The notes: a model not told the origin generated them from the sequence alone. A DNA stretch of 64,000 nt from an uncultured bacterium (GCA_937920495.1 CALEUQ010000039.1:8802-72801); one strand, 5' to 3'. Counted from the first letter of the stretch, positions 21,131-64,000 are shown. Numbers and translations: made by a program.

Positions 21131-21184
21131 TTTTGGCGATAGTTAATAGTTAAAACATTCATACCTTAAAAAAGAGGAATATAT

Positions 21185-22144
21185 ATGGCTCTGACCCCAA
21201 CACCCGTACGAACATTACAACATTACCTGGAAGAAGCCATCTTTGTGGGACAGGCCCACCGGCTTGGCGTGTTTAAAGAACTTTATACAAAGCCAGATAC
21301 ATCAGATGGCCTTGCAAAAAGAATGCAATTTGACACACGCGCAACATGGATACTTTTAGAAGCGCTTGTTGAATTGGGATACCTTGAAAAAAATAATGAA
21401 ATCTATAGTCCCACAGAATATTGCACACATCATTTAATTGACGAAAAAAACGATGAATACGAGGGTAACTTTTTACAGTTCTTACTGTATCTCATCAACC
21501 CGTGGCGCACATTGCCTCATGTACTAAGTACCGGAAGTCCTGATGAATCCAGCTTTAAGGAATTATCCATGCATGATTTTATCAAAGGTATGGATTCCCC
21601 CTGGAAAAAGAAATTAGCGCCTGAAATAGTTGACCTGTGTATTGCACATTGCTCTGACCCCACAACCTGCATTGACATAGGTGGTGCCCCCGGAACAATT
21701 GCCAGAGAATTTGTGCGCAGGGGAATTAAAACAATAGTATTTGATCTGCCTCAATCACTAGCAATAACTCAAGATGAGTTGACAACCATCCCCAATATAG
21801 AAGTAATAGCAGGCGATGCAACAGTTGCATTACCGGATCGCAAGGTTGATATAGCATTTTTAGGAAATCTGTGCCATGGGCAAGGGCCTGAAGATAATCA
21901 GAAAATAATAACCATGTGCTATGATAGCCTTAATAAGAATGGTATCATAGCTATATTTGATAACTTACGAAACGAAAGTTATTTAGGTGCAACGCTTGCT
22001 CTTCACATGTTAACCCAAAGCAAAAAGGGCAATATCTATTCACGCCAGGAATATTTTGGATGGCTGGGCAATGCCGGCTTTAAAACACCTAAAGTATACC
22101 AGCTATCCGATAGGGCATGGCAGCTTATTATTGCAAAAAAATAA
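21185..22144 (+). CDS. SAM-dependent O-methyltransferase (Methyltransf_2-like, with an N-terminal dimerisation/wHTH domain).
   Basis: The protein shows CIDIGGAPGTIAREF...IKTIVFDLPQ, with an N-terminal wHTH-like region. Confidence 0.7.
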   Translation: MALTPTPVRTLQHYLEEAIFVGQAHRLGVFKELYTKPDTSDGLAKRMQFDTRATWILLEALVELGYLEKNNEIYSPTEYCTHHLIDEKNDEYEGNFLQFLLYLINPWRTLPHVLSTGSPDESSFKELSMHDFIKGMDSPWKKKLAPEIVDLCIAHCSDPTTCIDIGGAPGTIAREFVRRGIKTIVFDLPQSLAITQDELTTIPNIEVIAGDATVALPDRKVDIAFLGNLCHGQGPEDNQKIITMCYDSLNKNGIIAIFDNLRNESYLGATLALHMLTQSKKGNIYSRQEYFGWLGNAGFKTPKVYQLSDRAWQLIIAKK

Positions 22145-22510
22145 AGAGGGGTACATAAGCCGGATTCTGTTTTGACAGCCATCAATCTTGCATGCATGTT
22201 GCCATGCATGTCTATGCGGCCTACCCGCAACCTTGAGCGGGCAACTCTGATAACGGTTGCCTATTTGGCCTTGCACCGGATGGGGTTTGCACTGCCACCT
22301 GCATTACTGCAGATGCGGTGAGCTCTTACCTCGCCTTTTCACCCTTACCCCACTATGGGGCGGTATATTTTCTGCTGCACTTTCCGTCGCCTTACAGCGC
22401 CCGGGCGTTACCCGGCATCCTGCCCTGTGGTGTCCGGACTTTCCTCACAACAATGCACACACCACACTGTGTATGTACATTGTGCGCATGCCGTCTGTAC
22501 CCCTCTTACT
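22142..22510 (-). ncRNA. rnpB: RNase P RNA (bacterial type A), M1 RNA.
   Basis: The minus-strand read gives AAGAGGGGTACAGACGG...GTGAGGAAAGTCCGGACACCACAGGGCAGGATGCCGGGTAACGCCCGGGCGCTG...GGTAAGGGTGAAAAGGCGAGGTAAGAGCTCACCGC...GTGCAAGGCCAAATAGG...GCGGGTAGGCCGC...ACAGAATCCGGCTTATGTACCCCTCTT. This matches the E. coli P4, P10-12, P15 and P18 consensus blocks. The P1 5' and 3' ends are complementary and followed by a U-tract. The track ORFs 22257-22603 on + lie inside it and are spurious. Confidence 0.85.
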
Positions 22511-23099
22511 ATACTACCACCGTATAAATACTTAACGAATTGGTGCCATATTTTCGCGTTTCTTTTTTTATTAACCTACCTGCACTTTCAGGCATTATAT
22601 TAGTATGGTAATGCTGCACACAAATAACCGAATCCTGATGTATAATGCTACTTTTAGAAATTATGTCCAACATAGAACTGTACACAACGGGTACATCCGC
22701 TATCTTTTCAAACGGCGGATCACAGAAGATGACATCAAACACCATCCCGCGTTCACTGCATAGCTTTACGCATCGTTCTGCAACTATGTTGTAGTGCAGT
22801 GTTCTATCAGACAATTCCCATGCATGAACGATATCTTTTGCAAACTGATAGCGGTTCCTATCGCTATCATTAAACACAACAAGTTTAGCACCTCTACTCA
22901 ATGCTTCCAGCCCAATCTGGCCTGTGCCAGAATACAAATCCAAAAAATTTTTTCCCGTTAAATCCTCACCTAAAATTGAAAATAACGCCTTTTTTAAACG
23001 CTGGCTTGTGGCTTCGGCACCTTTTAGCTTTTTTTCAAACGGTATTATCCGCCCTTTAAAGCTTCCGCCAATCACGCGCATGGTGTGCTGTGAAGCCAT
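22509..23099 (-). CDS. rsmD: 16S rRNA (guanine966-N2)-methyltransferase RsmD.
   Basis: The protein shows MRVIGGSFKGR...RLKKALFSILGEDLTGKNFLDLYSGTGQIGLEALSRGAKLVVFND...FCDPPF. Its 3' end abuts the rnpB 5' end. Confidence 0.8.
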   Translation of the reverse strand: MASQHTMRVIGGSFKGRIIPFEKKLKGAEATSQRLKKALFSILGEDLTGKNFLDLYSGTGQIGLEALSRGAKLVVFNDSDRNRYQFAKDIVHAWELSDRTLHYNIVAERCVKLCSERGMVFDVIFCDPPFEKIADVPVVYSSMLDIISKSSIIHQDSVICVQHYHTNIMPESAGRLIKKETRKYGTNSLSIYTVVV

Positions 23100-23102
23100 A
23101 GA

Positions 23103-23309
23103 TTAATTCTTAGCCTCTTTGATGGCATCATTAAGCTCTTTAATAAACTGATGCACGTCAAGCCCGTTATTAACTGCTACCATACGAATAGTATCCTCAT
23201 CAGCACCCTTACAGCCAATACAATCAAGATTATATTTTTTAAAAACCTTTGCCACTTGAATATTGTGCGTTATAACGTCTTTCAATTTCATATCTTCAGT
23301 GATTTTCAT
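23103..23309 (-). CDS. DUF1858 (hybrid-cluster-protein-associated redox disulfide) domain protein.
   Basis: The sequence MKITEDMKLKDVI...VFKKYNLDCIGCKGADEDTIRMVAVNNGLDVHQFIKELN matches the DUF1858 pattern with its CxGC pair. Confidence 0.6.
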   Translation of the reverse strand: MKITEDMKLKDVITHNIQVAKVFKKYNLDCIGCKGADEDTIRMVAVNNGLDVHQFIKELNDAIKEAKN

Positions 23310-23490
23310 ACTACATTCTCCCACTACAATAGCATTAATTCACTATAAAAGTAAATTCTATGTAAAGCTATCTCCCCTATAACATCATCACATACTATAT
23401 GTAACCTAATGTATAAATATACATACGTAACAACAAAGCTACAATATTAAATTTTGTAAATTTCTACGTCAAGTATACTTTATTTTATTA

Positions 23491-23605
23491 AGTTCCCCGA
23501 AAGCGCGATTGGCCAATCGCGTTTTCGGGGAACTATCGCGCTTTCGGGGAACTATCGCGCTTTCGGGGAACTATCGCGCTTTCGGGGAACTATCGCGCTT
23601 TCAGG
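23491..23605. repeat. A 44-bp near-perfect palindrome followed by about 4.7 tandem copies of a 19-bp unit (ATCGCGCTTTCGGGGAACT).
   Basis: Read directly from the sequence: AGTTCCCCGAAAGCGCGATTGG|CCAATCGCGTTTTCGGGGAACT, then three full copies of ATCGCGCTTTCGGGGAACT and a partial copy. There are no spacers, so it is not a CRISPR array. Confidence 0.9.
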
Positions 23606-23880
23606 TGGCACCCTCATGAGGATATACCATCATGCCTTGGTTAGGATGGAACTGCTACGCACCTTGCAATAACGGCAGGATGGCAAAAGCACTTACATTT
23701 TTTGTATTTTTTATAATTTCCCTAAAATTTTGAATCAGCTTAAAAATTTAAAATAAAATTGTTGCAATTTTTACAGGTCATAAAAATTATTGTCTATCAT
23801 TTTTCCAGATGATTCTACACCATAATTAACTGAATATATTGATGTGTCTTTGAGCAATACAGCGGTGTGTGAATAAAAAA

Positions 23881-23908: not shown

Positions 23909-23996
23909 ATTTAGTAACTATCGCGTAAGCAACACATGCTGTGCAGTTTGTTGAATACTATCAAATAATGAATAATACCTTACACAGGAGATAACA

Positions 23997-24185
23997 ATGG
24001 CTAAATGTGAAGTGTGTGGAAAGGCTGTATTATTTGGGCACAATGTAAGCCATTCCAATAAAAAGACCAGCAAAATATGGCATCCTAACGTTCAGAAGAT
24101 TCGCGTGGTTGAAGGCAACAAAGTTGTACGCAAGAATGTATGCACCCGTTGCATCCGTTCAGGTGCTGTACGTAAAGCAATATAA
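23997..24185 (+). CDS. rpmB: 50S ribosomal protein L28.
   Basis: The sequence MAKCEVCGKAVLFGHNVSHSNKKTSKIWHPNVQKIRVVEGNKVVRKNVCTRCIRSG matches L28. Confidence 0.9.
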   Translation: MAKCEVCGKAVLFGHNVSHSNKKTSKIWHPNVQKIRVVEGNKVVRKNVCTRCIRSGAVRKAI

Positions 24186-24773: not shown

Positions 24774-25699
24774 GGCATGTAACTGTATTCTACTAAAGAG
24801 TAATCTGTTTGTATATAGTGCTCAAGCTTTGGCTTTACAAATGAAGACATGGTAGCAAGTATCCTTTCAATTGGGCTTGCAGTATCTTCATACACCGCAC
24901 TATCTTCAGGCAATTTTGCTAGCTGCCGTGCTTTATTGACTGCATCGTCAAAGGTACCCAATTCATCCACAAGTTTGTATTCAACAGCCTGGCTTCCAGT
25001 AAACACCCTTCCATCAGCATACGGCATGATATCGCTTACTGCCATGTTTCTGCCAACGGCAACATCGTACACAAACTTCTGATAGCTTGTATCTATAATC
25101 TGCTGGATGAGCTGTAACTCTTCTGGGGAAAGTTCCCTGTAGCTTGCAAGTATATCTTTATACTTACCGCTTTTGATGACATTCATACGTATCCCCAATT
25201 TTTCAAACAGCCCGCGCAAATTAGGAGCTATGGCTATTACACCAATTGAACCGGTAATAGTGCCATAGTTTGCAATAATAGTATTACATGCTGATGCTAT
25301 ATAGTAACCACCAGATGCGGCTAAATCGCCCATTGAAGCAACAATAGGTATATTTTGTTTCTTAAGCGATAGTATCTTGTTATATATCTCCTGTGTTGCA
25401 GCAACAGTACCGCCGGGAGAGTTTATGCGTACAACTATTGCCTTAATGCGACTATCCTGCGCCAATTCATCTAAGCGCTTAACAACATAATCAGCATTTG
25501 CCTGCGAGAGCATGTCGCCAGTGGATTCAATACGACCATATATACGCACCACACCAACACCGGGCCCTTCAGTAAGCGTTATGCGCGTCCCTAACGTAGC
25601 CTGTCGTTGCATGGTAATGCTGATCTGAATAATAGCAAGCACAACCGCAAAAACCAGTATAACAAGTATTGCAATGAGTATTCGTCTGTTTTTATCCAT
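24770..25699 (-). CDS. sppA: Signal peptide peptidase SppA (S49 family, 36K type).
   Basis: The protein has an N-terminal TM segment, then ...VVRINSPGGTVAATQEIY...ASMGDLAASGGYYIA. Confidence 0.85.
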   Translation of the reverse strand: MDKNRRILIAILVILVFAVVLAIIQISITMQRQATLGTRITLTEGPGVGVVRIYGRIESTGDMLSQANADYVVKRLDELAQDSRIKAIVVRINSPGGTVAATQEIYNKILSLKKQNIPIVASMGDLAASGGYYIASACNTIIANYGTITGSIGVIAIAPNLRGLFEKLGIRMNVIKSGKYKDILASYRELSPEELQLIQQIIDTSYQKFVYDVAVGRNMAVSDIMPYADGRVFTGSQAVEYKLVDELGTFDDAVNKARQLAKLPEDSAVYEDTASPIERILATMSSFVKPKLEHYIQTDYSLVEYSYMP

Positions 25700-30022: not shown

Positions 30023-30023
30023 C

Positions 30024-31163
30024 ATGAAAACGATGATACGCATAGTGGCCATAGCTCAAAAGGAATGGATTCATATCTACAGGGATACCCGAAGCCTTAT
30101 CCTTGCGCTAATTACTCCTGCGGTTTTAGTGCTCATATTTGGCTATGCCCTCAATATGGATGTGAAAAATCTTGCATTTGTCATCTATGATCAGGATAAG
30201 ACGCCTTCCTCACGGCAATTTGCTGAGATGTTTATGCACAGCGAATATCTTACATATAAAGGGCATGTTGCCAGATACAATGATATTGATACAGCAATCA
30301 ATAAAGGTAACGCTGTTGCAGCACTGATTATCCCATACAATTTTACGGAACACATAAAAGGTGGACGATCATCACAATTACAGTTAATACTTGATGCATC
30401 AGATTCTATGTCGGCTACTATCGCCTCAGCATATTTTAATGCAATTATCTCACAGTATAACTTTGCCTGGATCCAAAAACACCTAAACCGGTCCGGATTT
30501 GGTACAATCCAAATACCTGTACATATTGAAAGCCGGGTATGGTATAATGAAGAATTGCAAAGCAAAAACTTTGTGGTGCCGGGCATCATAGTCATAGTGC
30601 TTGCTATCATAGGTGCACTCATCACATCCCTTGCCATAAGCCGCGAATGGGAACGTGGTACCATGGAAAGCCTCATAACCACACCTGTACGTTCGTGGGA
30701 AGTTATCACTGGCAAACTTATTCCCTATATCTTCATTGGCATGTTTGATGTTGTTATTACCTATCTGGTGGGATACTTTGTATTTGATATCCCCATCAGA
30801 GGAAGTTTTACTGAACTTTTGCTTGTTTCAGTATTGTTTTTAATTGGCACCTGTACCTTTGGGCTGGTTATCTCATCAGCAACACGTGTACAGGTGCTTT
30901 CAATTCAGGTGGCCATGGTTGCAACATACATGCCCACTATTATATTATCAGGTTTTATCTTCCCTATCAAAAATATGCCGGTTATATTGCAGGCTATCAC
31001 CTATATCATTCCGGCACGCTACATGATAGCACTTATCAAAGGCATTGCGCTTAAAGGGCTGGCAGCATCACTGCTTTCCACTCAGATTGTTTTTATGGCA
31101 GTATTTGCAAGCATCATGATATTTGTAGGCATAAAAAAAATAAATTTACGCTATACAGGATAA
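30024..31163 (+). CDS. ABC-2 family transporter permease.
   Basis: This 379-aa protein has an N-terminal TM segment, a large periplasmic loop and five C-terminal TM segments. Confidence 0.8.
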   Translation: MKTMIRIVAIAQKEWIHIYRDTRSLILALITPAVLVLIFGYALNMDVKNLAFVIYDQDKTPSSRQFAEMFMHSEYLTYKGHVARYNDIDTAINKGNAVAALIIPYNFTEHIKGGRSSQLQLILDASDSMSATIASAYFNAIISQYNFAWIQKHLNRSGFGTIQIPVHIESRVWYNEELQSKNFVVPGIIVIVLAIIGALITSLAISREWERGTMESLITTPVRSWEVITGKLIPYIFIGMFDVVITYLVGYFVFDIPIRGSFTELLLVSVLFLIGTCTFGLVISSATRVQVLSIQVAMVATYMPTIILSGFIFPIKNMPVILQAITYIIPARYMIALIKGIALKGLAASLLSTQIVFMAVFASIMIFVGIKKINLRYTG

Positions 31164-31168: not shown

Positions 31169-32320
31169 ATGAAACTATCGCTACACAATATCAGGATTAT
31201 GATAAAAAAAGAGTTTGCCCTTGTCATGCGCGATCCAAAAATGCGTGCAATCATGATTGTGCCACCTATACTCATGTCACTTGTATTTGGGTATGCTGTA
31301 AATACTGACGTCACCAATGTATCATTTGCAGTGTTTGACAGGGACCGTACATCCACAAGCAGAGAATTTGTGCAGCAGTTTGTTGCCTCGCCGTATTTTG
31401 ACATGTACGCATACATCGATTCGCCAGTTGAGGCACTGCGTTTAATAGAAAAAGGCAATATTGATTTTTATCTAGAGATACCCAACAATTTTGGCAAAAA
31501 TTTAAAGATTGGCAGGGCTATTGCTTTACAGGTTATCCTTGATGGCACTGATTCAAGCAGGGCTTCCGTTATTCAGTCATATATCAACGCATTAACGCTT
31601 TCGTATGTACAGGAACGCTTTACCAACGTCATCAAAATAAAAATAATGCAGCGGTCACAATTCGGCAATCAGGTGGGTTCCATTGAACTTATTCCACGCT
31701 ACTGGTTTAATCAGGATTTAAAAAGCATTAATTTTTATCTGCCGGGTGTGATTGCGATGCTTATCTCACTTATTACCATTATGCTGACGGCAATGTCTAT
31801 TGTGAAAGAACGTGAAGCGGGAACCATGGAACAAATACGCGTATCACCTCTTACGCCAAATGAATACATTATCGGCAAATTAGTGCCTTTTGCTATTATT
31901 GCATTTATTGATATCATTATCATAACTGCTATTGCCATTTTCTGGTTTGGCATTCCTTTTAGAGGCAGTTTTATCTTTCTGCTTGCATGTGGTTTGATCT
32001 ACATCATATCAGCATTAGCCATCGGGCTTTTTATATCAACAGTGTCTTCAACACAGCAACAGGCCATGCTTTCATCATTTATGTTTTTTGTGCCTGCGAT
32101 TTTGTTTTCGGGAGTCATATTCCCCATATACTCTATGCCTGTAGTCTTCCAGCTCATAACCTACCTTAATCCTATGCGTTATTTTGTTGAGATTGTACGT
32201 AGTGTATTTTTAAAAGGCACCGGGTTTTCATACCTGTGGCATAACATAGTAATACTTATCATTATGGGTATAGTAATACTAAGGCTAAGCGTATGGCAAT
32301 TTGGCAAAAGGACATCATAA
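31169..32320 (+). CDS. ABC-2 family transporter permease (second copy).
   Basis: It is a paralog of the preceding permease. Confidence 0.8.
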   Translation: MKLSLHNIRIMIKKEFALVMRDPKMRAIMIVPPILMSLVFGYAVNTDVTNVSFAVFDRDRTSTSREFVQQFVASPYFDMYAYIDSPVEALRLIEKGNIDFYLEIPNNFGKNLKIGRAIALQVILDGTDSSRASVIQSYINALTLSYVQERFTNVIKIKIMQRSQFGNQVGSIELIPRYWFNQDLKSINFYLPGVIAMLISLITIMLTAMSIVKEREAGTMEQIRVSPLTPNEYIIGKLVPFAIIAFIDIIIITAIAIFWFGIPFRGSFIFLLACGLIYIISALAIGLFISTVSSTQQQAMLSSFMFFVPAILFSGVIFPIYSMPVVFQLITYLNPMRYFVEIVRSVFLKGTGFSYLWHNIVILIIMGIVILRLSVWQFGKRTS

Positions 32321-32321: not shown

Positions 32322-33233
32322 ATGGAAACAGTAAAAGTTCTAAACCTCACAAAGCGTTTTGGCCATTTTAGGGCTGTTGATTCAGTCAGCTTTTCGGTGG
32401 CAAAGGGTGAAATATTTGGGCTGCTTGGGCCCAATGGTGCTGGTAAAAGCACTACTATTAAAATGCTATGTGGATTATTGCAGCCTGATGAAGGCCAGGG
32501 GACAGTAGGAGGTTTTGATATTACACACAACCAGTGGGAAATCAAACGTATTATTGGCTATATGTCGCAGAAATTTTCTCTTTATGAGGACCTTACCGTT
32601 GAAGAAAACTTAGAATTTTATGGCACAATATATGGGCTTTCAAAAATCCGTTTAATGCAACGCATGAACTTTATCTTTCAACTGGTAAACATCAAAGACT
32701 ATAAAGATAGTCTGGTAAAACATCTGCCACTTGGCATCAAGCAGCGTCTTGCATTGGGGCAGGCTTTGATTCATGACCCACACATACTTTTTTTAGATGA
32801 ACCAACCTCTGGCGTGGACCCCCTCATGCGAAGAATTTTCTGGGATGAGATTTATGCGTTAGCAAAGGAAGGGAAAACTGTATTTGTTACCACTCACTAC
32901 ATGGATGAAGCTGAACATTGCAACCGGATTGCACTGATCATTGCAGGCAAAATCATTGCCCTTGATACACCTCAGGGCTTAAAAGAAAAACTGCCCTACA
33001 CCATTGTAAAAATTGTAACCGATAGTTACCTTACAGCATACAACATATTGAACAATGCACACTTTGTAATTGAGGCAGCCCTCTTTGGAACCGACCTGCA
33101 CGTTGTGCTTGAAAAACAATTTAAAAATTTCTCACTCATAAAGAAATTACTGCAATCCCACAACATTCATGATGCTACTATTGAAACCATACTTCCCACA
33201 CTTGAAGATGTGTTTGTGATGAGTGCACGGTGA
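32322..33233 (+). CDS. ABC transporter ATP-binding protein (second copy).
   Basis: The start is at the ATG at 32322; the track ORF begins at a TTG at 32301. Walker A is GPNGAGKST. The signature is LPLGIKQRL. Walker B is LFLDEPTSGVD. Confidence 0.85.
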   Translation: METVKVLNLTKRFGHFRAVDSVSFSVAKGEIFGLLGPNGAGKSTTIKMLCGLLQPDEGQGTVGGFDITHNQWEIKRIIGYMSQKFSLYEDLTVEENLEFYGTIYGLSKIRLMQRMNFIFQLVNIKDYKDSLVKHLPLGIKQRLALGQALIHDPHILFLDEPTSGVDPLMRRIFWDEIYALAKEGKTVFVTTHYMDEAEHCNRIALIIAGKIIALDTPQGLKEKLPYTIVKIVTDSYLTAYNILNNAHFVIEAALFGTDLHVVLEKQFKNFSLIKKLLQSHNIHDATIETILPTLEDVFVMSAR

Positions 33234-33798: not shown

Positions 33799-35364
33799 TC
33801 AAGAGTTGAGAGCTTTCCTTAGGTATCGTATGATATCTCCTGCCTGCATAACACAGCTTTCTGTATGAGCGCAGTAGATATCCGCAGCTTTACCGTGAAT
33901 ATATACACCAAGCGATGCCGCAACTAAAGGATCATACCCTTTTGAAAGGAAAGAACCAATAGCACCGGCAAGCACATCACCTGAACCACCGGTTGCAAGT
34001 GCAGGATTTCCCGTGGTATTAATACAGGTAGAGGTGCCATCGGTTACTATGGATGCCGGGCCTTTGAGTACGGTAACACAGTGCAGCGTTTGTGCTATGC
34101 GTTCTGCTGAATGCACACGGTTTTTCTTTATATCATCAACACTTACAGCAGCAATACGCGCTGCTTCCTTAAAATGTGGCGTAATAACACATAAAGGAAT
34201 TTGTACCTCAGGTAACTGCGCTAAAAAATACAACCCATCACCATCAATCAGTACAGGCAACTGCATCTTTGCTGCAATCTGACATACGGCTTCATATGTT
34301 GCAGCCGCACCTACGCTTCTACCCAACCCCGGACCAATGATGCATGCCGTGGGACGCGATTGCTGCACTATGCGTTCTAACTGAGATACAATCTCTTTGT
34401 ATATACCAGTAAACTCATCTGTGCCATACATGTCTTTTGAAAACGGTTCATGACTTGTTGTGTTAATAGCGTTGGTGATAGCTTCAGGAATTTTCCCCGC
34501 AATGATTGAACGCGCCTGCGATGTGGTTACTATTGTGACAAGCCCTATACCTGCAGCAAACGCTGCACTGGCGCACAAAAGGATTGCCCCTTCCATCCCA
34601 TCAAATCCACCAATACACAAAAGGTGGCCGTTTGCATTTTTATATGCATCATATTCTTTATTTGGGCGATAGTTGCCGGTAAAAAATCCATCATCTATCA
34701 GCTGACGCTGCAAACTATCTGAATTGCAAAGCACACCCGGAAACCCTATGTTGGCAACAATAACATTGCCTGCGTAATATTTTCCCGGATAGGCAACAAG
34801 ATTGATCTTGGGCAGCCCCATAGTGATGGTGGTGTGCGCTTTTATGATACAATCGGATTCAATAGCGCCATCTGCAGGAAGTCCGCTTGGCATATCTATG
34901 GCAATAACCTGAGTACCACTTCCATTGATGAGAGTAATCACCTGCTGCAACAACCCTTTTGGCTGTCCCGTAAACCCTGTTCCGGTGAGTGCATCAATGA
35001 TACAATCATATTTTTTTAAATCGATAGTTACCAGGGATTCATTTGATAGTGTATAACACCGCACACCAGCGCGCTGGCACACATCATAGTATATCCTTGA
35101 TGATGGAGTAAGCTTATCGGTATTGCCTAAAAGGAATATATCTACCTGTAGGTGCTGTGAAAGCAGATAGGCAGCAACAAAACCATCACCACCATTATTG
35201 CCTGTGCCGCAGAAAACTGCAACACAGTGAGCGTGTGTGTGATGCACTACATAATCAGCAACTGATTTGCCAGCCAGTGCCATGAGCACCTGGCCAGGGA
35301 TCCCGTACTGCTGTATGGTAACCCTGTCAATCTCTTGCATCTGTTGTGCTGTTACCACTTTCAT
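33799..35364 (-). CDS. nnr: Bifunctional NAD(P)H-hydrate repair enzyme Nnr (epimerase/dehydratase, YjeF N- and C-terminal domains).
   Basis: The protein shows an N-terminal VFCGTGNNGGDGF and a C-terminal IIGPGLGR...GDVLAG. Confidence 0.85.
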   Translation of the reverse strand: MKVVTAQQMQEIDRVTIQQYGIPGQVLMALAGKSVADYVVHHTHAHCVAVFCGTGNNGGDGFVAAYLLSQHLQVDIFLLGNTDKLTPSSRIYYDVCQRAGVRCYTLSNESLVTIDLKKYDCIIDALTGTGFTGQPKGLLQQVITLINGSGTQVIAIDMPSGLPADGAIESDCIIKAHTTITMGLPKINLVAYPGKYYAGNVIVANIGFPGVLCNSDSLQRQLIDDGFFTGNYRPNKEYDAYKNANGHLLCIGGFDGMEGAILLCASAAFAAGIGLVTIVTTSQARSIIAGKIPEAITNAINTTSHEPFSKDMYGTDEFTGIYKEIVSQLERIVQQSRPTACIIGPGLGRSVGAAATYEAVCQIAAKMQLPVLIDGDGLYFLAQLPEVQIPLCVITPHFKEAARIAAVSVDDIKKNRVHSAERIAQTLHCVTVLKGPASIVTDGTSTCINTTGNPALATGGSGDVLAGAIGSFLSKGYDPLVAASLGVYIHGKAADIYCAHTESCVMQAGDIIRYLRKALNS

Positions 35365-38715: not shown

Positions 38716-38731
38716 GTAAGCGATAGTAACC

Positions 38732-39400: not shown

Positions 39401-41731
39401 TCACACGATATACGCTGCAAAGTACTTAATGGCTTCTTTCTTATCTTCGTTTGCCAGCACTGTGTCACCACTCTGTGTAACACAATTATTTGAAATAAGA
39501 AAATTCACTCCTTCCCGTATTATATCTTCTATAGAATACCGGTGTTTTAAATTACGCAGTTTCAGTATACTATCAATCTCACTTTTAATGGTATCAATAC
39601 GTGCATTTCCCCCAGCGGCATGTAACACACAGGCTACAAAATAATGCGGATAAATGGGTATATCATGCCGATGCTTTAGCGCCAACATCATCTTAGTATC
39701 ATCGCTTAACGTTGGGCTGGCAGAAAAATGCGACAGCGTCATTGGCCTTGAAATGTGGACTTTTGTTACATTTCTGAAAATTTTCAGGAATGAAACCGGA
39801 TACGTTACAGGGTTATAATATTTATGAGCAACCCGGGCAGGGATAATTGCTATCTCTTCAGTTGTTTTATGCAGCAAATCGCACAACCCATCAATGAACA
39901 TTTCCTTAATAGACATCGTGTGCCTGTCTTCATCTTTCAAAATATCAGAATACAACACCGGAATTCCATGCTCAATACACACCAACATATACTGCAACAG
40001 TGTTTCTTTGTATATGACTGAAGCGCATCGCATAGTATGCACCACATAACCACCACAAAGCCTGAAAAGAAAACGCAGTAAGGTATTTTCTAAAAGCTGG
40101 CTATCAACATAAAACCGCGGCAGGGGTATAGAAATAAATTTAATAAGTGCTAGAACCACAAACAATGAATCTGCCTGATCATGTGCATTGCAAAAATATA
40201 CAGGGTTTGCTGTCATCACTATCTTTTTTAAATATCTAATATCACCGGTAAGCGAAATTCTTTCCTCAAAAAATTCCGTGAGCCTTCGACGGTATAATAA
40301 TCCATACAAATAAAAGAACAATCGTGCCAACTTCAATACCAGCACTGAGAATGTATACACATATCTATCGCTTATACTATCATAATAATACTCAATGAGA
40401 AGTTTAAGTTGCTTTTCATAATTTTCTTCATTAAGAGTTTTATAAAGCGATAGTTCATGTGAATACTCTTTATGCCGGGGAAGTTGCTGCTGTAAAAAGT
40501 CCCGGTATTCTTGCCGGTTACGTAACACCTCATTTTTTTTATTTTCACTGCATAACTGCTGCATAATCCTCTCAACCACAAGATTTTTAAATATTAAACC
40601 GCTCATGCGTTCTATGCCTTTTTTGCGCTCCTTTGCCTTTATCCGTGCACGCCGTGTGAGTATTTCATATTTTGCCGGATTTTTAATTGTTTCAATGAGC
40701 AGCCATGGATCGCGCTTATTGAGAAGCACATCGTACAGCGAGCGGTATACTGGCAAAGTGAGATTATATTTATCGGCAAGCTCTATAATGGGCTCTATGG
40801 CATACGCCCCTTCAACCAGATAATGCATGCGTTTACTCATTCTTTCCAGTACATTTTCAGGTTTTACGCGTAATAATAACTTGTCAAAAAAACCTAACGT
40901 TGTTCCTTTCTGGGTTATTTGTTCAGCTATCTCCCTGCCAAAGCGCCTGTTACGGCTATGCTGGCTTAACGCTGTTGCAACTAAGTCACCTAAACCGGCA
41001 ATGCCCATAATAGTCTGTTCCTTTGCACCCAGGCAGCGTCCCAGTTGAATCATCTCAAGGTGTGCCTGTGCAATCAACGCTCCTGAAAGGTTATCTCCGC
41101 ACGCAGGCAGGTTGCCAATAATTCCGGCAGCAATTGCTGCGGGATTTTTCAAGGTGCTTCCACAGTCAACACCAATAATGTCATCTGCCGGTATGCATTC
41201 CAGATATTCATTTTGAAGTAGATTCACAAAAAAATTAATTGAAGCTTTTGATTTGCTGGCAACATGCAATGCCGTATGGTATTCCCGGCACACCTCCTCA
41301 GCATGGCTTGGTCCATATATAGCACACACCCTGTCTATTAAAAAAGGCATTGCTAACTCTATAGTCTGTGACATGGTATAAATACCCGAACCAACCTTGC
41401 AAAAGCCTTTAGACAAATATCCACAATATACCTTTGCATCAACATAGCGTCTGATTCGTGTGCAGGTATCATATACAACTTTGGAAGGAGTGGCAATAAT
41501 TACTGCATCCGTGCCTTTGACCGATTCTTTAATATCAGTATATGCAACAATATTAAGAGCAAGTTCCACATCAGGAAGGTACATTATATTGACATGCTGA
41601 GTATTTATAGTACGTACCACATCCTTCTCGTAAGCCCACATCCGCACAACAATTTCAGGATGATTACGGGCAACTACATTAGCAACAGCAGTGCCCCATG
41701 CACCTGCACCTATCACAGTTATGGATTTCAT
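39401..41731 (-). CDS. gpsA: NAD(P)H-dependent glycerol-3-phosphate dehydrogenase domain fused to a ~440-aa uncharacterized C-terminal domain (possibly acyltransferase-like).
   Basis: The N-terminus MKSITVIGAGAWGTAVA... through residue ~330 matches GpsA. It is followed by a long hydrophobic/helical extension in the same ORF. Confidence 0.65.
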   Translation of the reverse strand: MKSITVIGAGAWGTAVANVVARNHPEIVVRMWAYEKDVVRTINTQHVNIMYLPDVELALNIVAYTDIKESVKGTDAVIIATPSKVVYDTCTRIRRYVDAKVYCGYLSKGFCKVGSGIYTMSQTIELAMPFLIDRVCAIYGPSHAEEVCREYHTALHVASKSKASINFFVNLLQNEYLECIPADDIIGVDCGSTLKNPAAIAAGIIGNLPACGDNLSGALIAQAHLEMIQLGRCLGAKEQTIMGIAGLGDLVATALSQHSRNRRFGREIAEQITQKGTTLGFFDKLLLRVKPENVLERMSKRMHYLVEGAYAIEPIIELADKYNLTLPVYRSLYDVLLNKRDPWLLIETIKNPAKYEILTRRARIKAKERKKGIERMSGLIFKNLVVERIMQQLCSENKKNEVLRNRQEYRDFLQQQLPRHKEYSHELSLYKTLNEENYEKQLKLLIEYYYDSISDRYVYTFSVLVLKLARLFFYLYGLLYRRRLTEFFEERISLTGDIRYLKKIVMTANPVYFCNAHDQADSLFVVLALIKFISIPLPRFYVDSQLLENTLLRFLFRLCGGYVVHTMRCASVIYKETLLQYMLVCIEHGIPVLYSDILKDEDRHTMSIKEMFIDGLCDLLHKTTEEIAIIPARVAHKYYNPVTYPVSFLKIFRNVTKVHISRPMTLSHFSASPTLSDDTKMMLALKHRHDIPIYPHYFVACVLHAAGGNARIDTIKSEIDSILKLRNLKHRYSIEDIIREGVNFLISNNCVTQSGDTVLANEDKKEAIKYFAAYIV

Positions 41732-51430: not shown

Positions 51431-52296
51431 ATTTCTCGTATTATGAAAGCATTATCTCCCGGATATTTATGTATGTATTCTGCAACCGGCAAGCATTTTA
51501 CTTTAAATATAAAAAACAATTTTACCTTATTTTTCACCAATCCTTCCAATGGAGCGTCTATCATTGTTTCAAAATTTCCCTGCCCCTTAAGGATAATCAT
51601 ATCTGCCTGCGATAGTTCATTTAAAAACTCATCGCTGCATCGATGCACATTAATCCCTGGAGTAGGGTCACCGGTGGTTATTACTCTAACTTTTCTATCT
51701 AACCCAATATGCCGTACGTCTTCCATGGTTGCATCGTTGATGACTGGGCCACCACGCACAACACACACGATCTTACCAATAGGAAGCTGCTCCATAAGCA
51801 GCATATCGGCAACTATCTCTCCCGCATTATCAGCGATATACAGTATCCTTTGTGAATCTGAAATGGTTTTGGTAAATTGGTTGTAGAATTTATTAGGCAC
51901 CGTGATATTATTCACCAGCGTTTTGAATGTTGCCAGATAATCTGTCTCAGGTTCCATATCGCCAATGCCGTAATCAATTATATTGGCAGCCAGCGCTATG
52001 CGCAATGCCTGTTGTAAGGTATCACCCTGCAGTAGAGTTTGTAACTGTGGTAGCAATGACATCATCAATGCATTGCTTTCTTTTTTGATATCTGCAAAAG
52101 GATCATGACCAATCCATTTACGGATAGCCTTATACATTTCATATGCACAATCAGGTGGGGTGGAAAAATTCCCTGCTATTATACGGGTTAACTGCTGCAT
52201 TACACATAATTTGGTATTTTCATCAAGAGTAAGTTTTGACACCACTCGATATATATGGTTGATATGGCAGGGGATACAATGGAAGGTGGGCTTCAT
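51427..52296 (-). CDS. DUF89 / ARMT1-like (damage-control phosphatase family) protein.
   Basis: This 289-aa protein shows ...ILKGQGNFETM..., resembling the DUF89 KGDANYR-region pattern. It is a family guess. Confidence 0.5.
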   Translation of the reverse strand: MKPTFHCIPCHINHIYRVVSKLTLDENTKLCVMQQLTRIIAGNFSTPPDCAYEMYKAIRKWIGHDPFADIKKESNALMMSLLPQLQTLLQGDTLQQALRIALAANIIDYGIGDMEPETDYLATFKTLVNNITVPNKFYNQFTKTISDSQRILYIADNAGEIVADMLLMEQLPIGKIVCVVRGGPVINDATMEDVRHIGLDRKVRVITTGDPTPGINVHRCSDEFLNELSQADMIILKGQGNFETMIDAPLEGLVKNKVKLFFIFKVKCLPVAEYIHKYPGDNAFIIREI

Positions 52297-61058: not shown

Positions 61059-61481
61059 ATGGATGAAGCCAGACTCTTAGCAGAATATTGCAAGGCGATA
61101 GTTCCTGAAAACGTACCTTTGATTGTGATGGGTGATTTCAATGCTACTCCCGATTCACCCGAAATGCAGTATTTTTTACATCAGGAGTATTACGATACAT
61201 TTATAATTTACAAAAAGCATGAACCCTACACATGGAATCCATTAAAAAACACCAACATACAAAAGTATTATACAATTGACACAAATAAAAAATTTGATTC
61301 ACTCTATTCACATCTAAATAAAATACATGAGCTTGAACCAAAGCGAATAGATTACATTATTGTGAATAAATCGATTGCACCTGATAATATAATTGATTCA
61401 CGGGTGTGCTGCGATACTCTTTATGATGGCATACATCTATCGGATCATTTTGGAGTTTACGCTGAAATAAGGATAGAGTAA
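61059..61481 (+). pseudogene. Endonuclease/exonuclease/phosphatase (EEP) family gene fragment, C-terminal half only.
   Basis: EEP C-terminal motifs are present: VMGDFNATPDS and LSDHFGVYAEI. There is no in-frame N-terminal half. An in-frame stop lies at 61008, and the upstream 570 bp is non-coding. Confidence 0.5.
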
Positions 61482-62326: not shown

Positions 62327-62395
62327 AACATAACACTACAGGGATGCAGACAAACCGCATCCCTGTTCATACATCTTTTTTCTTGGAATGATACA

Positions 62396-62905
62396 ATGGA
62401 AGTAGCTCTGTTAATAGCAGCGATACTATGTGCCATCGGTGGCATTCTGGGGTCAATTTTCCCAATACTTCCCGGTCCACCGTTAAGCTTCTTTGCACTT
62501 ATCCTCATGAATTTTAGCGGTTTTGCTTCTTTTAGCTTCACTGTGTTGCTTATATCAGGAACTATCGCCGCACTATTAACGGTGCTTGATTATATACTGC
62601 CATCATGGATTATTAACCGCTTTGGTGGTTCAAAGAAAGGTGCAATTGGATCCATGATTGGATTGATAGTGGGAAGTATTGTATTGCCGTTTATTGGCAT
62701 AATCATAGGCCCTTTTATTGGTGCGTTGATAGGTGAACTTTTGGCAGGAAATAATACAAGGTCGGCATTGAAAGCGGCATTGCTCACCTTTATGGGATTT
62801 TTAATAAGTACCGGGTTAAAGTTGGGGTATACAATAACCATAGCATATTATATTGCAAAAGCATTAATGGGGCAACCTGAAGCTTTTGATTACCCCATTA
62901 TCTAA
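62396..62905 (+). CDS. DUF456-family small membrane protein.
   Basis: The sequence LLIAAILCAIGGILGSIFPILPGPPLSF... matches the DUF456 N-terminal pattern. Four TM segments are predicted. Confidence 0.55.
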   Translation: MEVALLIAAILCAIGGILGSIFPILPGPPLSFFALILMNFSGFASFSFTVLLISGTIAALLTVLDYILPSWIINRFGGSKKGAIGSMIGLIVGSIVLPFIGIIIGPFIGALIGELLAGNNTRSALKAALLTFMGFLISTGLKLGYTITIAYYIAKALMGQPEAFDYPII

Positions 62906-62916
62906 TTACCCACACA

Positions 62917-63702
62917 TTACCTACCTTTAAAATTTGCTTCGCGGCGCTCAATAAAGGCTCTGACCCCTTCCTGTGCATCTTCACTTCTCATAATGGGCAA
63001 AAGGTCGGGAAGTAACCGCGCCAGTGCAGCTTTTGCTCCTTCAACACGTGAAAGGCGGGCTGAACGCAGTATGGCTTTTACCCCCAGTGGTGCCTGCTTT
63101 GCAATAACTTCTGCAATTTCTATTGCGCGTGCAAGCTCTTTTCCCGGCTCAACCAGCTCCTGCACCAGCCCAAGACGGTAGGCTTCCTGTGCATTCATCT
63201 CATCACCCGTGAGTAAATACCGCATGGCATTGCCCCAGCCTATCTCCTCAAAAAGCCGTACTGTGGCGCCACCCACCGGATAAATACCACGCTTTACCTC
63301 AATTTGAGCCAGTCGCAGGTTAGTAGCCGCAACACGAACATCGGTAGCAAGCATAAGCTCCCAGCCAACAGTAAAGCAAATACCCTGCAGGGCAGCCACA
63401 ACTGGCTTACCCACCCGGTTATCCTCATCAATACCAAAGGGATCCTTGCTGCCTTCAGGAAGTTTTGGATACTCACCTTTTGAAAACGGCTCCACCCATT
63501 GAACCAGATCAAGCCCACCGGTGAAATGCTCACCATGCGCAAAGAGTACACCACAACGCACATCATCATCAGCATCAAGCGTGCCATAGGCCTTTGCAAG
63601 GTCCCAGTACATTTCAACATCAAATGCATTGCGCTTTTCAGGACGGTTTAGCCCAATCAGTAAAATATGCCCCTTCTTTTCTACAGTTATTTTTTGTGTC
63701 AT
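62917..63702 (-). CDS. Enoyl-CoA hydratase/isomerase (crotonase) family protein.
   Basis: The protein shows ...GLNRPEKRNAFD... and ...FTGGLDL.... The start is at M7. The gene is visibly more GC-rich than its surroundings. Confidence 0.85.
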   Translation of the reverse strand: MTQKITVEKKGHILLIGLNRPEKRNAFDVEMYWDLAKAYGTLDADDDVRCGVLFAHGEHFTGGLDLVQWVEPFSKGEYPKLPEGSKDPFGIDEDNRVGKPVVAALQGICFTVGWELMLATDVRVAATNLRLAQIEVKRGIYPVGGATVRLFEEIGWGNAMRYLLTGDEMNAQEAYRLGLVQELVEPGKELARAIEIAEVIAKQAPLGVKAILRSARLSRVEGAKAALARLLPDLLPIMRSEDAQEGVRAFIERREANFKGR

Positions 63703-64000
63703 ACAAACCTCAATATACAATATTCATATTTTGTATTAATACACATTATTACCATTTCATGTCAATTCATAATAATTTTTATATGTGGCGATAGTTACTG
63801 TTATAGAGCCTTATTCTTAGTTATGTGACCAGCCGCTCCTGCGATCAATTGCTATCAGTACAAGACAAATTAAAAACACCACCAGGACATGGGGCACATC
63901 ATCACGAATAGTACATTGCATTTTACGAGAAAATAATCCAGCCTGTGCAATACAACCAATCACTAAACTCTCTTCATAAATCAAAAACTGATTTTTTAAA

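What the first reader, a model, noticed from the sequence alone, without database searches (positions are those of the whole stretch)
21135..63800. Strongly over-represented 9- to 14-mer GGCGATAGT[TA]... motif scattered through coding and noncoding DNA on both strands
The + orientation was read directly at: 21135 (GGCGATAGTTAAT), 28911 (GTCGATAGTTACCCGG), 33019, 38719, 40447, 51608, 53843, 60665 (GGCGATAGTTACCGG), 61094 (GGCGATAGTTCCTG) and 63787 (GGCGATAGTTACTG). The reverse orientation was read at: 23913, 26947, 36446, 44121, 59287 and 62556. The three sites at 26947, 36446 and 44121 share the identical 14-mer CAGTTACTATCGCC. The site at 62556 is CAGGAACTATCGCC, the exact complement of 61094. 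Four further copies lie inside the tandem array at 23513-23605. A given 9-mer is expected about 0.5 times in 64 kb on both strands; the core occurs at least 17 times. Sites fall inside genes in different frames and show no obvious strand bias. That pattern is typical of DNA uptake sequences or nucleoid/protein-binding words rather than Chi or KOPS.
Basis: seen in the sequence. Interest (0 to 1): 0.6.

Follow-up and report, generated by a model that had tools for sequence, protein, structure and literature searches.

The report
Clade-specific hyperabundant GCGATAGT DNA word
An uncultured group of Leptospira-like spirochaetes carries the short DNA word GCGATAGT about once every 2-4 kb, on both strands and in and between genes; related species keep it unchanged while the surrounding DNA diverges, which is how known DNA-uptake tags behave, though what reads it is untested.

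Summary
The core 8-mer GCGATAGT occurs 28 times in 64 kb, against 0.6-3.8 expected under Markov orders 0-4. GGCGATAGT occurs 13 times against 0.2 expected. The copies split 13 on the + strand and 15 on the - strand. Thirty-four independent sites give a non-palindromic consensus of about 18 nt: gGCGATAGT-T-M-C-T-G-nnn-A.

The word acts at the DNA level. It occupies all open frames in both orientations and is about 3-fold enriched between genes. It forces rare codons: 4 of 10 Glu-Leu-Ser tripeptides are GAA-CTA-TCG, against 0.06 expected. No longer repeat surrounds it.

It is hyperabundant in every sampled lineage whose RpoD is at least 92% identical to the window's, at 0.19-0.60 copies per kb. 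It is absent at 79% or lower identity, and about 2 Mb of other DNA shows chance levels. Between species about 81% identical, 8 of 9 alignable sites are intact, against 21% of control 8-mers. Inside the word, 17 of 17 third-codon positions are identical, against 62% outside.

It shows no strand polarity, so it is not Chi or KOPS. The 19-bp array is an insertion absent from the one related species that could be compared.

My best reading is a USS/DUS-like uptake or self-recognition word (about 0.4). The main rival is a HIP1-like chromosome-structure word (about 0.3). Function is untested.

The parts
10867..10874 (+). GCGATAGT core site, inside the HD-GYP/GAF gene 9604-11664(-), antisense to the gene (peptide NYR)
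12290..12297 (+). Core site (GCGATAGTTCCTTG) in the cNMP-binding gene 11736-13154(-), antisense (peptide ELS)
20595..20602 (+). Core site in the methyltransferase gene 20417-21130(+), sense orientation
21012..21019 (-). Core site in the methyltransferase gene 20417-21130(+), antisense
21136..21143 (+). Intergenic core site (GGCGATAGTTAAT), 5 nt after a stop codon
23491..23531 (.). 21-bp inverted repeat (GTTCCCCGAAAGCGCGATTGG / CCAATCGCGTTTTCGGGGAAC) next to the array. It is built from an inverted, altered unit of the array.
   Evidence: DNA fold -32.6 kcal/mol, z = -4.5
23516..23602 (-). Tandem array of 4.6 x 19 bp (unit GCGATAGTTCCCCGAAAGC) holding 4 exact core copies at 23532, 23551, 23570 and 23589. 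It lies in a stretch of about 420 nt (23325-23745) where a related species has 68 nt. A same-strain contig (L163) breaks inside it, so the copy number is uncertain.
23917..23924 (-). Intergenic core site just downstream of the predicted rpmB promoter (TTGACA-16-TAATAT, ending at 23908). It is conserved in related species L164 although the flanks diverge.
25366..25373 (+). Core site in the S49 peptidase gene 24770-25699(-), antisense; conserved in L164
26953..26960 (-). Core site (GGCGATAGTAACTG) at the TetR/OEP gene junction
30417..30424 (-). Core site in the ABC-2 permease gene 30024-31163(+), antisense
31174..31181 (-). Core site overlapping the start of the ABC-2 permease gene 31169-32320(+)
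34666..34673 (+). Core site (GGCGATAGTTGCCGG) in the Nnr/YjeF gene 33799-35364(-); conserved in L294, L295 and L299
36451..36458 (-). Intergenic core site (GGCGATAGTAACTG), 12-21 nt upstream of the start of gene 35368-36438(-). It is conserved in L294, L295, L297 and L299 at 61-77% flank identity.
38720..38727 (+). Intergenic core site between two + strand genes; present only in the 96-100% RpoD subgroup
40447..40454 (+). Core site in the GpsA-fusion gene 39401-41731(-), antisense (peptide ELS). It is intact in four of the five clade lineages compared (L294, L297, L299, L001); L295 has a one-off variant.
44126..44133 (-). Core site (GGCGATAGTAACTG) in dnaG, sense (peptide AIV). It is conserved in L083, L294 and L295, and reads GTGATAGT in the 92% subgroup.
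51609..51616 (+). Core site in the ARMT1-like gene 51427-52296(-); conserved in L083 and L294
53843..53850 (+). Core site in carB, antisense (peptide ELS); conserved in L083
54508..54515 (-). Core site (GGCGATAGTTCCCGG) in carB, sense (peptide AIV); conserved in L083
59292..59299 (-). Core site in gene 58836-60485(-), sense; conserved in L083
60612..60619 (-). Intergenic core site, one half of a divergent pair 54 bp apart; conserved in L083
60666..60673 (+). Intergenic core site (GGCGATAGTTACCGG), the other half of the divergent pair; conserved in L083
61095..61102 (+). Core site (GGCGATAGTTCCTG) in ORF 61059-61481(+); conserved in L083
62561..62568 (-). Core site (GGCGATAGTTCCTG) in the DUF456 gene; reads GCGATAGC in L083
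63788..63795 (+). Intergenic core site (GGCGATAGTTACTG); the region cannot be aligned with L083
28912..28919 (+). One-off variant TCGATAGT with the full extension (TTACCCGG). TCGATAGT occurs 8 times, 16-fold over Markov-3. The other copies start at 4136, 7803, 14524, 35021, 43799 and 45880 (+) and 49994 (-).
33019..33026 (+). One-off variant CCGATAGT with the TTACC extension. Further one-off variants lie at 36569 and 48593 (ACGATAGT, +) and 49446 (CCGATAGT, -).

Best explanation
Shown:
- GCGATAGT, with a weaker 3' extension T-M-C-T-G-nnn-A, is a DNA-level recognition word about 18 nt long.
- It is scattered at 0.2-0.6 copies per kb, on both strands, over the chromosomes of one genus-level clade of uncultured Leptospirales-like spirochaetes.
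- Individual copies arise and are lost by point substitution.
- Once present, a copy is kept intact far more often than neighbouring DNA, even at synonymous and intergenic positions and at the cost of rare codons.

Inferred:
- A sequence-specific DNA-binding protein of this clade reads the word in either orientation.
- The most likely role is that of a DNA uptake sequence, as with Pasteurellaceae USS and Neisseriaceae DUS. A surface or periplasmic receptor of a competence machine would preferentially bind and import DNA fragments that carry the word.
- Alleles carrying the word would then be transmitted preferentially by transformation and recombination. This molecular drive would spread and maintain the word through the core genome of the species that share the receptor.
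- The 19-bp array is a local slippage expansion of one copy inside a lineage-specific insertion. It is not a separate functional element.
For: Over-representation:
- The 8-mer occurs 28 times against 0.6-3.8 expected under Markov orders 0-4.
- In a base-rate control of 82 loci of at least 15 kb, only the window and its relative L083 have a multi-frame 8-mer with at least 10 copies at more than 10-fold over Markov-3.

Architecture:
- The word is non-palindromic and unpolar, with 13 + and 15 - copies interleaved.
- It has a strong core plus a weaker flanking consensus with a conserved A/A-rich position about 1.5 helical turns from the start of the core. From my own knowledge, this resembles the H. 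influenzae USS layout of a core plus phased AT tracts.
- Density is 0.19-0.60 per kb. From my own knowledge, USS and DUS occur at about 0.8-0.9 per kb.

DNA-level evidence:
- The word occupies five (orientation, phase) classes. About 32% of sites lie in the 11% of the window that is non-coding.
- Rare codons are forced. ELS is GAA-CTA-TCG in 4 of 10 cases against 0.06 expected. LS is CTA-TCG in 11 of 109 cases against 0.86 expected.
- An internal control word, GCCWGTGC, sits mainly in a single frame (12 of 21 copies) and is almost never intergenic (1 of 21).

Clade limits:
- Every lineage sampled with RpoD at least 92% identical is rich in the word: window, L083, L294, L295/L296, L297, L299-L302 and L001.
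- The 79% outgroups have none (L002, L303, L304).
- About 2 Mb of other loci are at chance level.

Maintenance:
- Window against L083: 8 of 9 alignable sites are perfect against 21% of control 8-mers (P = 3e-5).
- Window against L294: 6 of 6 sites are perfect (P = 1e-4).
- Window against L299: 3 of 5 sites are perfect against 8.7% of controls.
- Third-codon positions are identical in 17 of 17 cases inside the word against 62% outside. Intergenic positions are identical in 16 of 16 cases against 72%.
- Core positions are identical in 64 of 64 cases against 76-82% in the flanks.

Turnover and distribution:
- Gains and losses occur by substitution.
- The low-GC type III CRISPR island at 1-9.6 kb has no exact copy, with P about 0.012.
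- ComEC-type proteins are near-universal in bacteria, including Spirochaetes (PMC6299819), so the import channel is plausibly present.
Against: - No uptake assay is possible on these uncultured organisms.
- No competence, pilin or receptor gene lies in the roughly 100 kb of clade DNA I could read.
- To my knowledge, natural transformation is not documented in any spirochaete, and the ComEC survey cited lists competent strains from only eight phyla (PMC6299819).
- Every sequence property found here would also fit a chromosomal protein-binding word under ordinary selection. The same conservation test is what Xu et al. used to argue for selection on HIP1 (PMC5861425).
- There are no inverted-pair terminator copies of the kind that, from my own knowledge, are typical of Neisseria DUS.
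- Spacing is random rather than even.
- Sequence identity around conserved sites is not raised, so there is no sign of recombination tracts centred on sites.
- The island depletion is weak. Two one-off variants with the extension lie inside the island.
Confidence: 0.4

Rival explanations
1. Chromosome-architecture word, HIP1-like. A nucleoid-associated or chromosome-organising protein of this clade binds GCGATAGT, for example in domain organisation, condensin loading or segregation. Ordinary purifying selection keeps each site. DNA uptake plays no part.
For: - Over-representation (13-47-fold by Markov orders 1-3) overlaps the low end of HIP1's range of 15-300-fold (PMC5861425).
- Conservation between species exceeds that of control octamers, in coding and non-coding DNA and at synonymous sites. 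Xu et al. used the same test to infer selection on HIP1 and proposed a nucleoid role (PMC5861425).
- Some sites are conserved across the whole clade at 61-71% flank identity.
- A tandem array of five sites would make a strong binding locus.
- The rival does not require spirochaetes to be competent.
Against: - No candidate protein has been identified.
- The array is absent from a related species, so it is not a conserved nucleation site.
- Known chromosome-structuring sites such as parS, matS, NBS and SBS are, from my own knowledge, few and mostly palindromic rather than present at about 0.5 per kb.
- Periodicity cannot be tested on 64 kb, and spacing here is Poisson-like.
- The function of HIP1 is itself unproven.
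Confidence: 0.3
2. By-product of a sequence-specific DNA modification or repair system. A clade-specific methyltransferase with a linked mismatch-correcting nuclease would act as a Vsr-like or methyl-directed ratchet. It would convert near-matches into the word and protect existing copies.
For: - A mutational ratchet of this kind has been proposed for the origin of HIP1 (Elhai, cited in PMC5861425).
- One-off variants are also enriched. TCGATAGT occurs 8 times, 16-fold over Markov-3.
- Sites appear and disappear by single substitutions.
- The sharp clade boundary would fit gain of a single enzyme.
Against: - No DNA methyltransferase or Vsr-like gene lies in the window. The three methyltransferases present are small-molecule or rRNA types.
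- The only restriction-modification system seen in relatives is of the MvaI/BcnI type (CCWGG or CCSGG, from my own knowledge of those enzymes) and occurs in one subgroup only.
- From my own knowledge, known very-short-patch repair yields about 2-fold biases, not 15-50-fold.
- An asymmetric 8-mer with an 18-nt extended consensus is not a typical modification site.
- Continual neutral replenishment predicts poor positional conservation, which is the opposite of what I observed.
Confidence: 0.1
3. Packaging or recognition signal for a host-encoded gene-transfer agent or transducing phage, with pac-like sites scattered over the chromosome so that host DNA is packaged.
For: - From my own knowledge, spirochaetes are known to exchange DNA by phage-like particles, such as Brachyspira VSH-1 and Borrelia phiBB-1.
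- A self-DNA tag that promotes horizontal transmission would be driven and conserved in the same way as an uptake sequence.
Against: - From my own knowledge, known gene-transfer agents package without sequence specificity.
- No phage or gene-transfer-agent genes lie in any clade DNA I read.
Confidence: 0.05
4. Polar chromosome motif: a Chi site for RecBCD/AddAB, or a KOPS-like guide for FtsK.
For: The word is an over-represented octamer found in genes and between them.
Against: - Orientation is 13 + to 15 - (13 to 12 without the array), and the two orientations alternate on a kilobase scale across the whole window.
- Close divergent and convergent pairs are conserved between species.
- A polar motif should be strongly co-oriented within a replichore.
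Confidence: 0.03
5. Artefact of composition, codon usage, a repeated peptide or a hidden dispersed repeat (MITE or REP) family.
For: - High-order Markov models (order 5 and above) come near the observed count.
- Other loci show 6-30-fold 'enriched' 8-mers under a zero-order model.
Against: - High-order models are trained on the motif's own sub-words.
- The enriched words in relatives vanish under Markov-3 or are dominated by one frame.
- The word is multi-frame, enriched between genes and uses rare codons.
- Flanks share no more than about 25 nt, and no inverted-repeat structure surrounds the dispersed copies.
- The word is present in independent assemblies from ENA, Logan, JGI and NCBI.
Confidence: 0.02

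Closest known systems
DNA uptake signal sequences of Pasteurellaceae (USS: AAGTGCGGT / ACAAGCGGT)
   Same: - A short non-palindromic core with a weaker flanking consensus that includes an A-rich patch.
- A density of the order of one copy every 1-4 kb.
- Both orientations, in genes (using frames that encode common tripeptides) and enriched between genes.
- Shared by related species, with gain and loss by point mutation (the USS properties come from my own knowledge and PMC1939737 / PMC2817400 abstracts).
   Different: - The sequences are unrelated.
- The host is a spirochaete with no known competence.
- Uptake bias is untested.
- Density is about 2-fold lower.
DNA uptake sequence (DUS) and its dialects in Neisseriaceae, read by the minor pilin ComP
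   Same: - A lineage-restricted word with a sharp phylogenetic boundary.
- Conservation in the core genome.
- Depletion in a probably acquired island.
- The extended consensus contains a CTG element followed by A, superficially like the conserved CTG core of DUS dialects (PMC3630211).
   Different: - There are no inverted-pair terminator copies.
- I found no dialect variation. The own top words of more distant relatives are compositional or codon effects.
- No ComP-like receptor was identified.
HIP1 (GCGATCGC) and HIP1-like octamers of cyanobacteria
   Same: - An octamer about 15-50-fold over-represented.
- Found in all frames and between genes.
- More conserved between species than control octamers and than the same codons elsewhere (PMC5861425).
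- It shares the 5' GCGAT.
   Different: - It is not a palindrome.
- It is not cyanobacterial.
- No associated methyltransferases were seen.
- Periodicity is untestable here.
Chi and KOPS polar octamers
   Same: An over-represented octamer in coding and non-coding DNA.
   Different: There is no strand polarity at all.
REP/BIME and MITE dispersed repeats
   Same: It is a repeated element, and one locus carries a hairpin plus tandem copies.
   Different: - The dispersed copies lie mostly inside genes.
- They have no palindromic structure.
- They share only about 18 nt.

Membership tests
DNA uptake sequences (USS/DUS) | Hyperabundant short non-palindromic word, of the order of one per kb, on both strands without replication polarity | tested here: met
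   28 copies in 64 kb against 0.6-3.8 expected. Density is 0.19-0.60 per kb in all clade loci. The strand split is 13 + to 15 -.
DNA uptake sequences (USS/DUS) | Shared by a group of related species and absent outside it | tested here: met
   Present in all lineages with RpoD at least 92% identical and absent at 79% or lower. About 2 Mb of other DNA is at chance level.
DNA uptake sequences (USS/DUS) | Competent cells preferentially take up DNA carrying the word | not testable with these tools
   The organisms are uncultured and no assay is possible.
DNA uptake sequences (USS/DUS) | Genome encodes a competence machine (type IV pilus or pseudopilus, ComEA, ComEC, DprA) and a sequence-specific receptor | not tested
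   None lies in the roughly 100 kb of clade DNA I could reach. ComEC-type proteins are common in Spirochaetes in general (PMC6299819).
DNA uptake sequences (USS/DUS) | Enrichment between genes, often as inverted pairs acting as terminators (DUS) | tested here: inconclusive
   Intergenic enrichment is about 3-fold. No terminator-like inverted pairs were found, only one divergent and one convergent pair about 50 bp apart.
HIP1-type highly iterated palindromes | Palindromic octamer | tested here: not met
   The reverse complement of GCGATAGT is ACTATCGC, so the word is not a palindrome.
HIP1-type highly iterated palindromes | Sites conserved between genomes more than control octamers, independent of codon choice | tested here: met
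HIP1-type highly iterated palindromes | Long-range (10-90 kb) periodic spacing | not testable with these tools
   Only 64 kb of contiguous sequence is available. Short-range spacing is Poisson-like.
Chi / KOPS | Strong co-orientation with replication within a replichore | tested here: not met
   Orientations are interleaved across the whole window.
REP / MITE dispersed repeats | Extragenic location, a conserved unit of 20-40 nt or more with a palindromic or terminal-inverted-repeat structure | tested here: not met
   17 of 25 dispersed sites lie in ORFs. Flanks are unrelated beyond about 18-25 nt.

The most novel reading that the evidence does not exclude
Sequence-specific DNA uptake evolved independently in an uncultured, genus-level clade of Leptospirales-like spirochaetes, with GCGATAGT(T-M-C-T-G) as its tag. 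To my knowledge this would be the third known lineage with such a tag, the first outside the Proteobacteria, and the first indication of natural transformation in the phylum Spirochaetota.
Probability: 0.35. Interest if true: 0.8.

Novelty: new member of a known kind. Interest (0 to 1): 0.6.

Why it matters
Genome-wide words that are hyperabundant, unpolar and conserved are rare. To my knowledge, the well-understood cases are the uptake sequences of two proteobacterial families. The best-known unexplained case is cyanobacterial HIP1.

A new, sharply clade-bounded example has practical value. Lineages with RpoD at least 92% identical have the word, and lineages at 79% do not. This gives a clean comparative design: whatever gene was gained at that node is the candidate reader of the word.

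If it proves to be a nucleoid protein, it would give a tractable parallel to HIP1.

The word is also a usable binning and taxonomic marker for this clade in metagenomes.

Tried and rejected
1. Dialects in relatives. The top 8-mers of more distant spirochaete loci looked like possible dialects sharing the TTCCnG extension (ATTCCGGT, TTCCCCTG, TTTCCCGG and others). They are almost entirely coding and several are frame-dominated. None survives a Markov-3 model at n of at least 7 and at least 6-fold. I rejected the idea.

2. Second motif in the window. GCCWGTGC, with 21 copies, is a codon-level word: 12 of 21 copies sit in one frame and 1 is intergenic. I kept it as a control only.

3. ECF-type promoter. 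The reverse complement contains GGAAC(T). There is no -10-like element at any fixed distance, and most copies lie inside genes. I rejected this.

4. ops/RfaH-like element. GGCGATAG resembles GGCGGTAG, but the density, the use of both strands and the intragenic location do not fit. I rejected this from my own knowledge of ops.

5. Recombination-site or cargo-border role. Motif copies flank a variable gene block in L297 and L299. However, one copy supplies the stop codon of the conserved upstream gene and is orthologous to a variant in genomes without the block. I judged this a coincidence of intergenic enrichment.

6. RNA element in the array region. A sensitive Rfam search gave only sub-threshold hairpin noise. 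The whole-window Rfam search found only RNase P.

7. Viral contigs. Motif density in them is at background level.

8. Literature. Full-text searches for the 8-mer returned only primers and unrelated oligonucleotides. No paper on uptake sequences or over-represented words in spirochaetes was found.

9. Even spacing. Not found.

10. Raised identity around sites as a recombination footprint. Not found.

11. Walking to other parts of the genome to look for competence genes was not possible. Look-ups are limited to window proteins and their listed homologues, and one extension gave only 4.9 kb.

Full report
**Observation**

A search of the window finds GGCGATAGT 13 times, where dinucleotide-preserving shuffles give a mean of 0.22 and a maximum of 2. 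CGATAGT occurs 40 times against 3.2 expected. A k-mer scan shows that the real core is the 8-mer GCGATAGT, with 28 copies. It is the most over-represented 8-mer of the window.

Expected counts for the 8-mer under Markov models trained on the window are 1.6 (order 0), 0.9 (order 1), 0.6 (order 2), 1.9 (order 3) and 3.8 (order 4). P is about 4e-23 at order 3. Only models of order 5 and above approach the observed count, and they do so because they are trained on the motif's own sub-words.

- Ten exact sites were missed: 10867, 12290, 20595, 21012, 25366, 30417, 31174, 34666, 54508 and 60612.
- Two listed sites, 28911 and 33019, are one-off variants.
- Four copies sit in a 19-bp tandem array of 4.6 units at 23516-23602.

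**Anatomy**

Thirty-four independent sites from the window and relatives give the consensus g-GCGATAGT-T-[A/C]-C-[T/C]-G-n-n-n-A-a.
- The core is invariant by construction of the site set.
- C at position +10 occurs in 22 of 34 sites.
- A at position +16 occurs in 27 of 34 sites.
- There is no information upstream of the core.
- The word is not a palindrome.
- The variant TCGATAGT is also enriched, with 8 copies at 16-fold over Markov-3. It carries the same extension.

A repeat search finds no longer unit around the copies. Flanks resemble each other over about 25 nt at most.

Orientation is 13 + to 15 -, and the two orientations alternate throughout the window. Spacing cannot be distinguished from random, with CV 0.95.

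**A DNA-level word, not a peptide or RNA signal**

Of 25 dispersed sites, 17 lie in ORFs and about 8 lie in the 11% of the window that is non-coding. This is about a 3-fold intergenic enrichment. The coding sites use five different orientation and phase classes, encoding the peptides xLS, NYR, AIV, TIA and xDS.

The one closed class is explained by the TAG inside the word.

The word imposes rare codons.
- CTA makes up 7% of Leu codons and TCG 11% of Ser codons.
- Even so, 4 of 10 Glu-Leu-Ser tripeptides are GAA-CTA-TCG, against 0.06 expected.
- Eleven of 109 Leu-Ser dipeptides are CTA-TCG, against 0.86 expected.

Another enriched word, GCCWGTGC, serves as an internal control. It is in one frame in 12 of 21 cases and is intergenic only once.

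**Organism and phylogenetic range**

The window is chromosomal. It carries dnaG-rpoD, carB, rpmB and RNase P RNA. It comes from an uncultured Leptospirales-like spirochaete. The best species-representative match for RpoD is 92%, to 'Spirochaetia bacterium UBA2205', and the next is 79%.

The large protein collection shows a compact clade.
- RpoD identities are 100%, 96-97%, 93-95% and 92%.
- They are followed by a gap down to 79%.

Loci fetched from the lineages sampled across these identity tiers are all rich in the word.
- L083 has 14 copies in 23.4 kb, again the top 8-mer.
- L294 has 10 copies.
- L295 and L296 have 6 each.
- L297 has 5.
- L299 to L302 have 5-6 each.
- L001 has 3 copies in 15.5 kb.
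- The window itself has 6 copies in the same rpoD region.

DNA outside the clade is at chance level.
- The 79% outgroups L002, L303 and L304 have none.
- The 78 other spirochaete loci are at chance.
- The 79 unrelated carB loci hold 29 copies in 1.1 Mb, which is chance.
- The 120 viral contigs fished with a 14-mer show background density.

Under a Markov-3 model, only the window and L083 among 82 loci of at least 15 kb have a multi-frame 8-mer with at least 10 copies at more than 10-fold enrichment.

Independent assemblies from ENA, Logan, JGI and NCBI all show the word, so it is not an assembly artefact.

**Maintenance of sites**

L083 is syntenic with window 42.0-63.7 kb at 81% nucleotide identity.
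- Of 9 alignable window sites, 8 are intact in L083 and one differs by a single base.
- Control 8-mers with the same G+C content are intact in only 21% of cases (P = 3e-5).
- Window against L294 gives 6 of 6 intact sites against 23% of controls (P = 1e-4).
- Window against L299, at about 69% identity, gives 3 of 5 intact sites against 8.7% of controls (P = 0.006).

Within the word, third-codon positions are identical in 17 of 17 cases against 62% elsewhere in the same genes. Intergenic positions are identical in 16 of 16 cases against 72% elsewhere. Across the 8 shared sites, the core is identical at 64 of 64 positions while the flanks are 76-82% identical.

Individual sites differ in how deeply they are conserved.
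- Sites 36451 and 34666 are intact in every clade lineage that could be aligned there.
- Site 40447 is intact in four of five lineages and is a one-off variant in L295.
- Site 44126 reads GTGATAGT in the 92% subgroup.
- Sites 38720 and 51609 are confined to the closest lineages.
- Relatives have sites that the window lacks.
- Differences are point substitutions wherever an alignment is possible.

Sites therefore arise and decay in place by mutation and are then kept. This is the same argument used to infer selection on HIP1 (PMC5861425).

**Tandem array**

The array and an adjoining 21-bp inverted repeat at 23491-23531 fold as a strong DNA hairpin. Both lie in a stretch of about 420 nt between a DUF1858 gene and rpmB. 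A related species (L164-L172, 77-86% identity) has only 68 nt there and no array.

That species nevertheless keeps the single site just downstream of the predicted rpmB promoter (the 23917 orthologue) and the site inside the S49 peptidase gene (25366).

A same-strain contig breaks inside the array, so its copy number is uncertain. No other array was found in any held DNA. I read the array as a local expansion of one copy, not as a separate element.

**Distribution within the window**

The first 9.6 kb is a low-GC island (30-35% G+C). It carries type III CRISPR-Cas genes and accessory genes. It has no exact copy, where 4.4 would be expected (P about 0.012). It does hold two one-off variants that carry the extension, so the depletion is only suggestive.

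**Interpretation**

The data establish four things.
- The word is read at the DNA level, in either orientation.
- It is restricted to one clade.
- It is maintained site by site.
- Chi and KOPS (no polarity), REP and MITE (no structure, intragenic), promoter or RNA roles (both strands, in genes), and codon or composition artefacts are all excluded.

Two explanations remain, and sequence alone cannot separate them.

The first is an uptake sequence of the USS/DUS kind. Abundance, asymmetry, a core plus an A-rich flank, intergenic enrichment, use of frames that encode common tripeptides, restriction to a clade, and mutation-plus-drive turnover all fit. ComEC-type channels are widespread in Spirochaetes (PMC6299819).

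The second is a chromosome-structure word, as proposed for HIP1.

Against the uptake reading, I know of no report of natural competence in spirochaetes. No competence or receptor gene was within reach. There are no terminator-like inverted pairs, no even spacing and no recombination footprint.

I give uptake sequence about 0.4 and nucleoid word about 0.3. I give a modification or repair ratchet about 0.1, a packaging signal about 0.05, and the excluded options together about 0.05.

**Novelty**

The full-text search for the sequence found only unrelated oligonucleotides. I found no description of such a word in spirochaetes. It is a new member of the known class of hyperabundant genome-wide words.

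The sharp boundary between lineages at 92% and 79% RpoD identity makes the reader protein findable by comparative genomics.

Noticed in passing
window 2-9438: Low-GC (30-35%) island. It carries type III CRISPR-Cas effector genes: Cas10/Cmr2 (cut by the window end) and a RAMP protein. It also carries a CHAT-domain protease (4543-6126), a 680-aa DUF3800 protein, and a small ORF followed by a sigma-70-like gene (8746-9438). This may be a protease and sigma-factor signalling accessory module. The island has no exact copy of the motif.
   Followed up: partly
window 39401-41731 (-): NAD-dependent glycerol-3-phosphate dehydrogenase (GpsA) fused to a C-terminal part of about 430 aa with no Pfam match. 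The same fusion (785-804 aa) occurs in all clade relatives and in the 79% outgroup.
   Followed up: no
window 46029-46144 and 49868-49983; also 16164-16364 and 26139-26242: Two small dispersed intergenic repeat families unrelated to the motif. The first is about 115 nt, 87% identical, with a GC-rich hairpin (CCCCGCCGGCTTCGGCGGCGGGG). The second is about 100-200 nt at about 70-73% identity.
   Followed up: no
window 46246-47271; L297 3737-7301; L299 3533-7097: The spot between the MFS_3 gene and yqeY is a variable cargo site in the clade. It is empty in L294 and L295. The window has a 341-aa ORF there with no family match. The 92-93% subgroup has an N6/N4 DNA methyltransferase, an MvaI/BcnI-type endonuclease, Ldh_2 and DUF493.
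   Followed up: partly
window 48543-48842; L294 5911-6345: A T4 endonuclease V-like pyrimidine-dimer glycosylase gene (Pyr_excise) lies between DUF4015 and MFS_3 in L294, L295, L297 and L299-L302 (L301 not called). It is missing from the window.
   Followed up: no
window 60486-61481: ORF 61059-61481 encodes only the C-terminal half of an endonuclease/exonuclease/phosphatase domain. It is preceded by 570 nt with no ORF, so it is probably a decayed gene. The ORF-free stretch holds a conserved divergent pair of motif copies.
   Followed up: partly
window 22141-22506 (-); 23997-24185 (+): An RNase P RNA (class A, 301 bits) and an rpmB (L28) gene of 62 codons. Their presence confirms a chromosomal context.
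   Followed up: yes
window-wide, e.g. 20275, 37358, 63020: GCCWGTGC / GCACWGGC occurs 21 times, but almost always as GCA-CWG-GCx in one frame. It is a codon or peptide effect (Ala-Leu/Gln-Ala), not a DNA-level word.
   Followed up: yes
L083 14544/14599 and L294 2658/2713 (orthologous to window ~51609-51671): Two relatives have a convergent pair of motif copies 55 bp apart inside the ARMT1-like gene. The window retains only one of the two.
   Followed up: no
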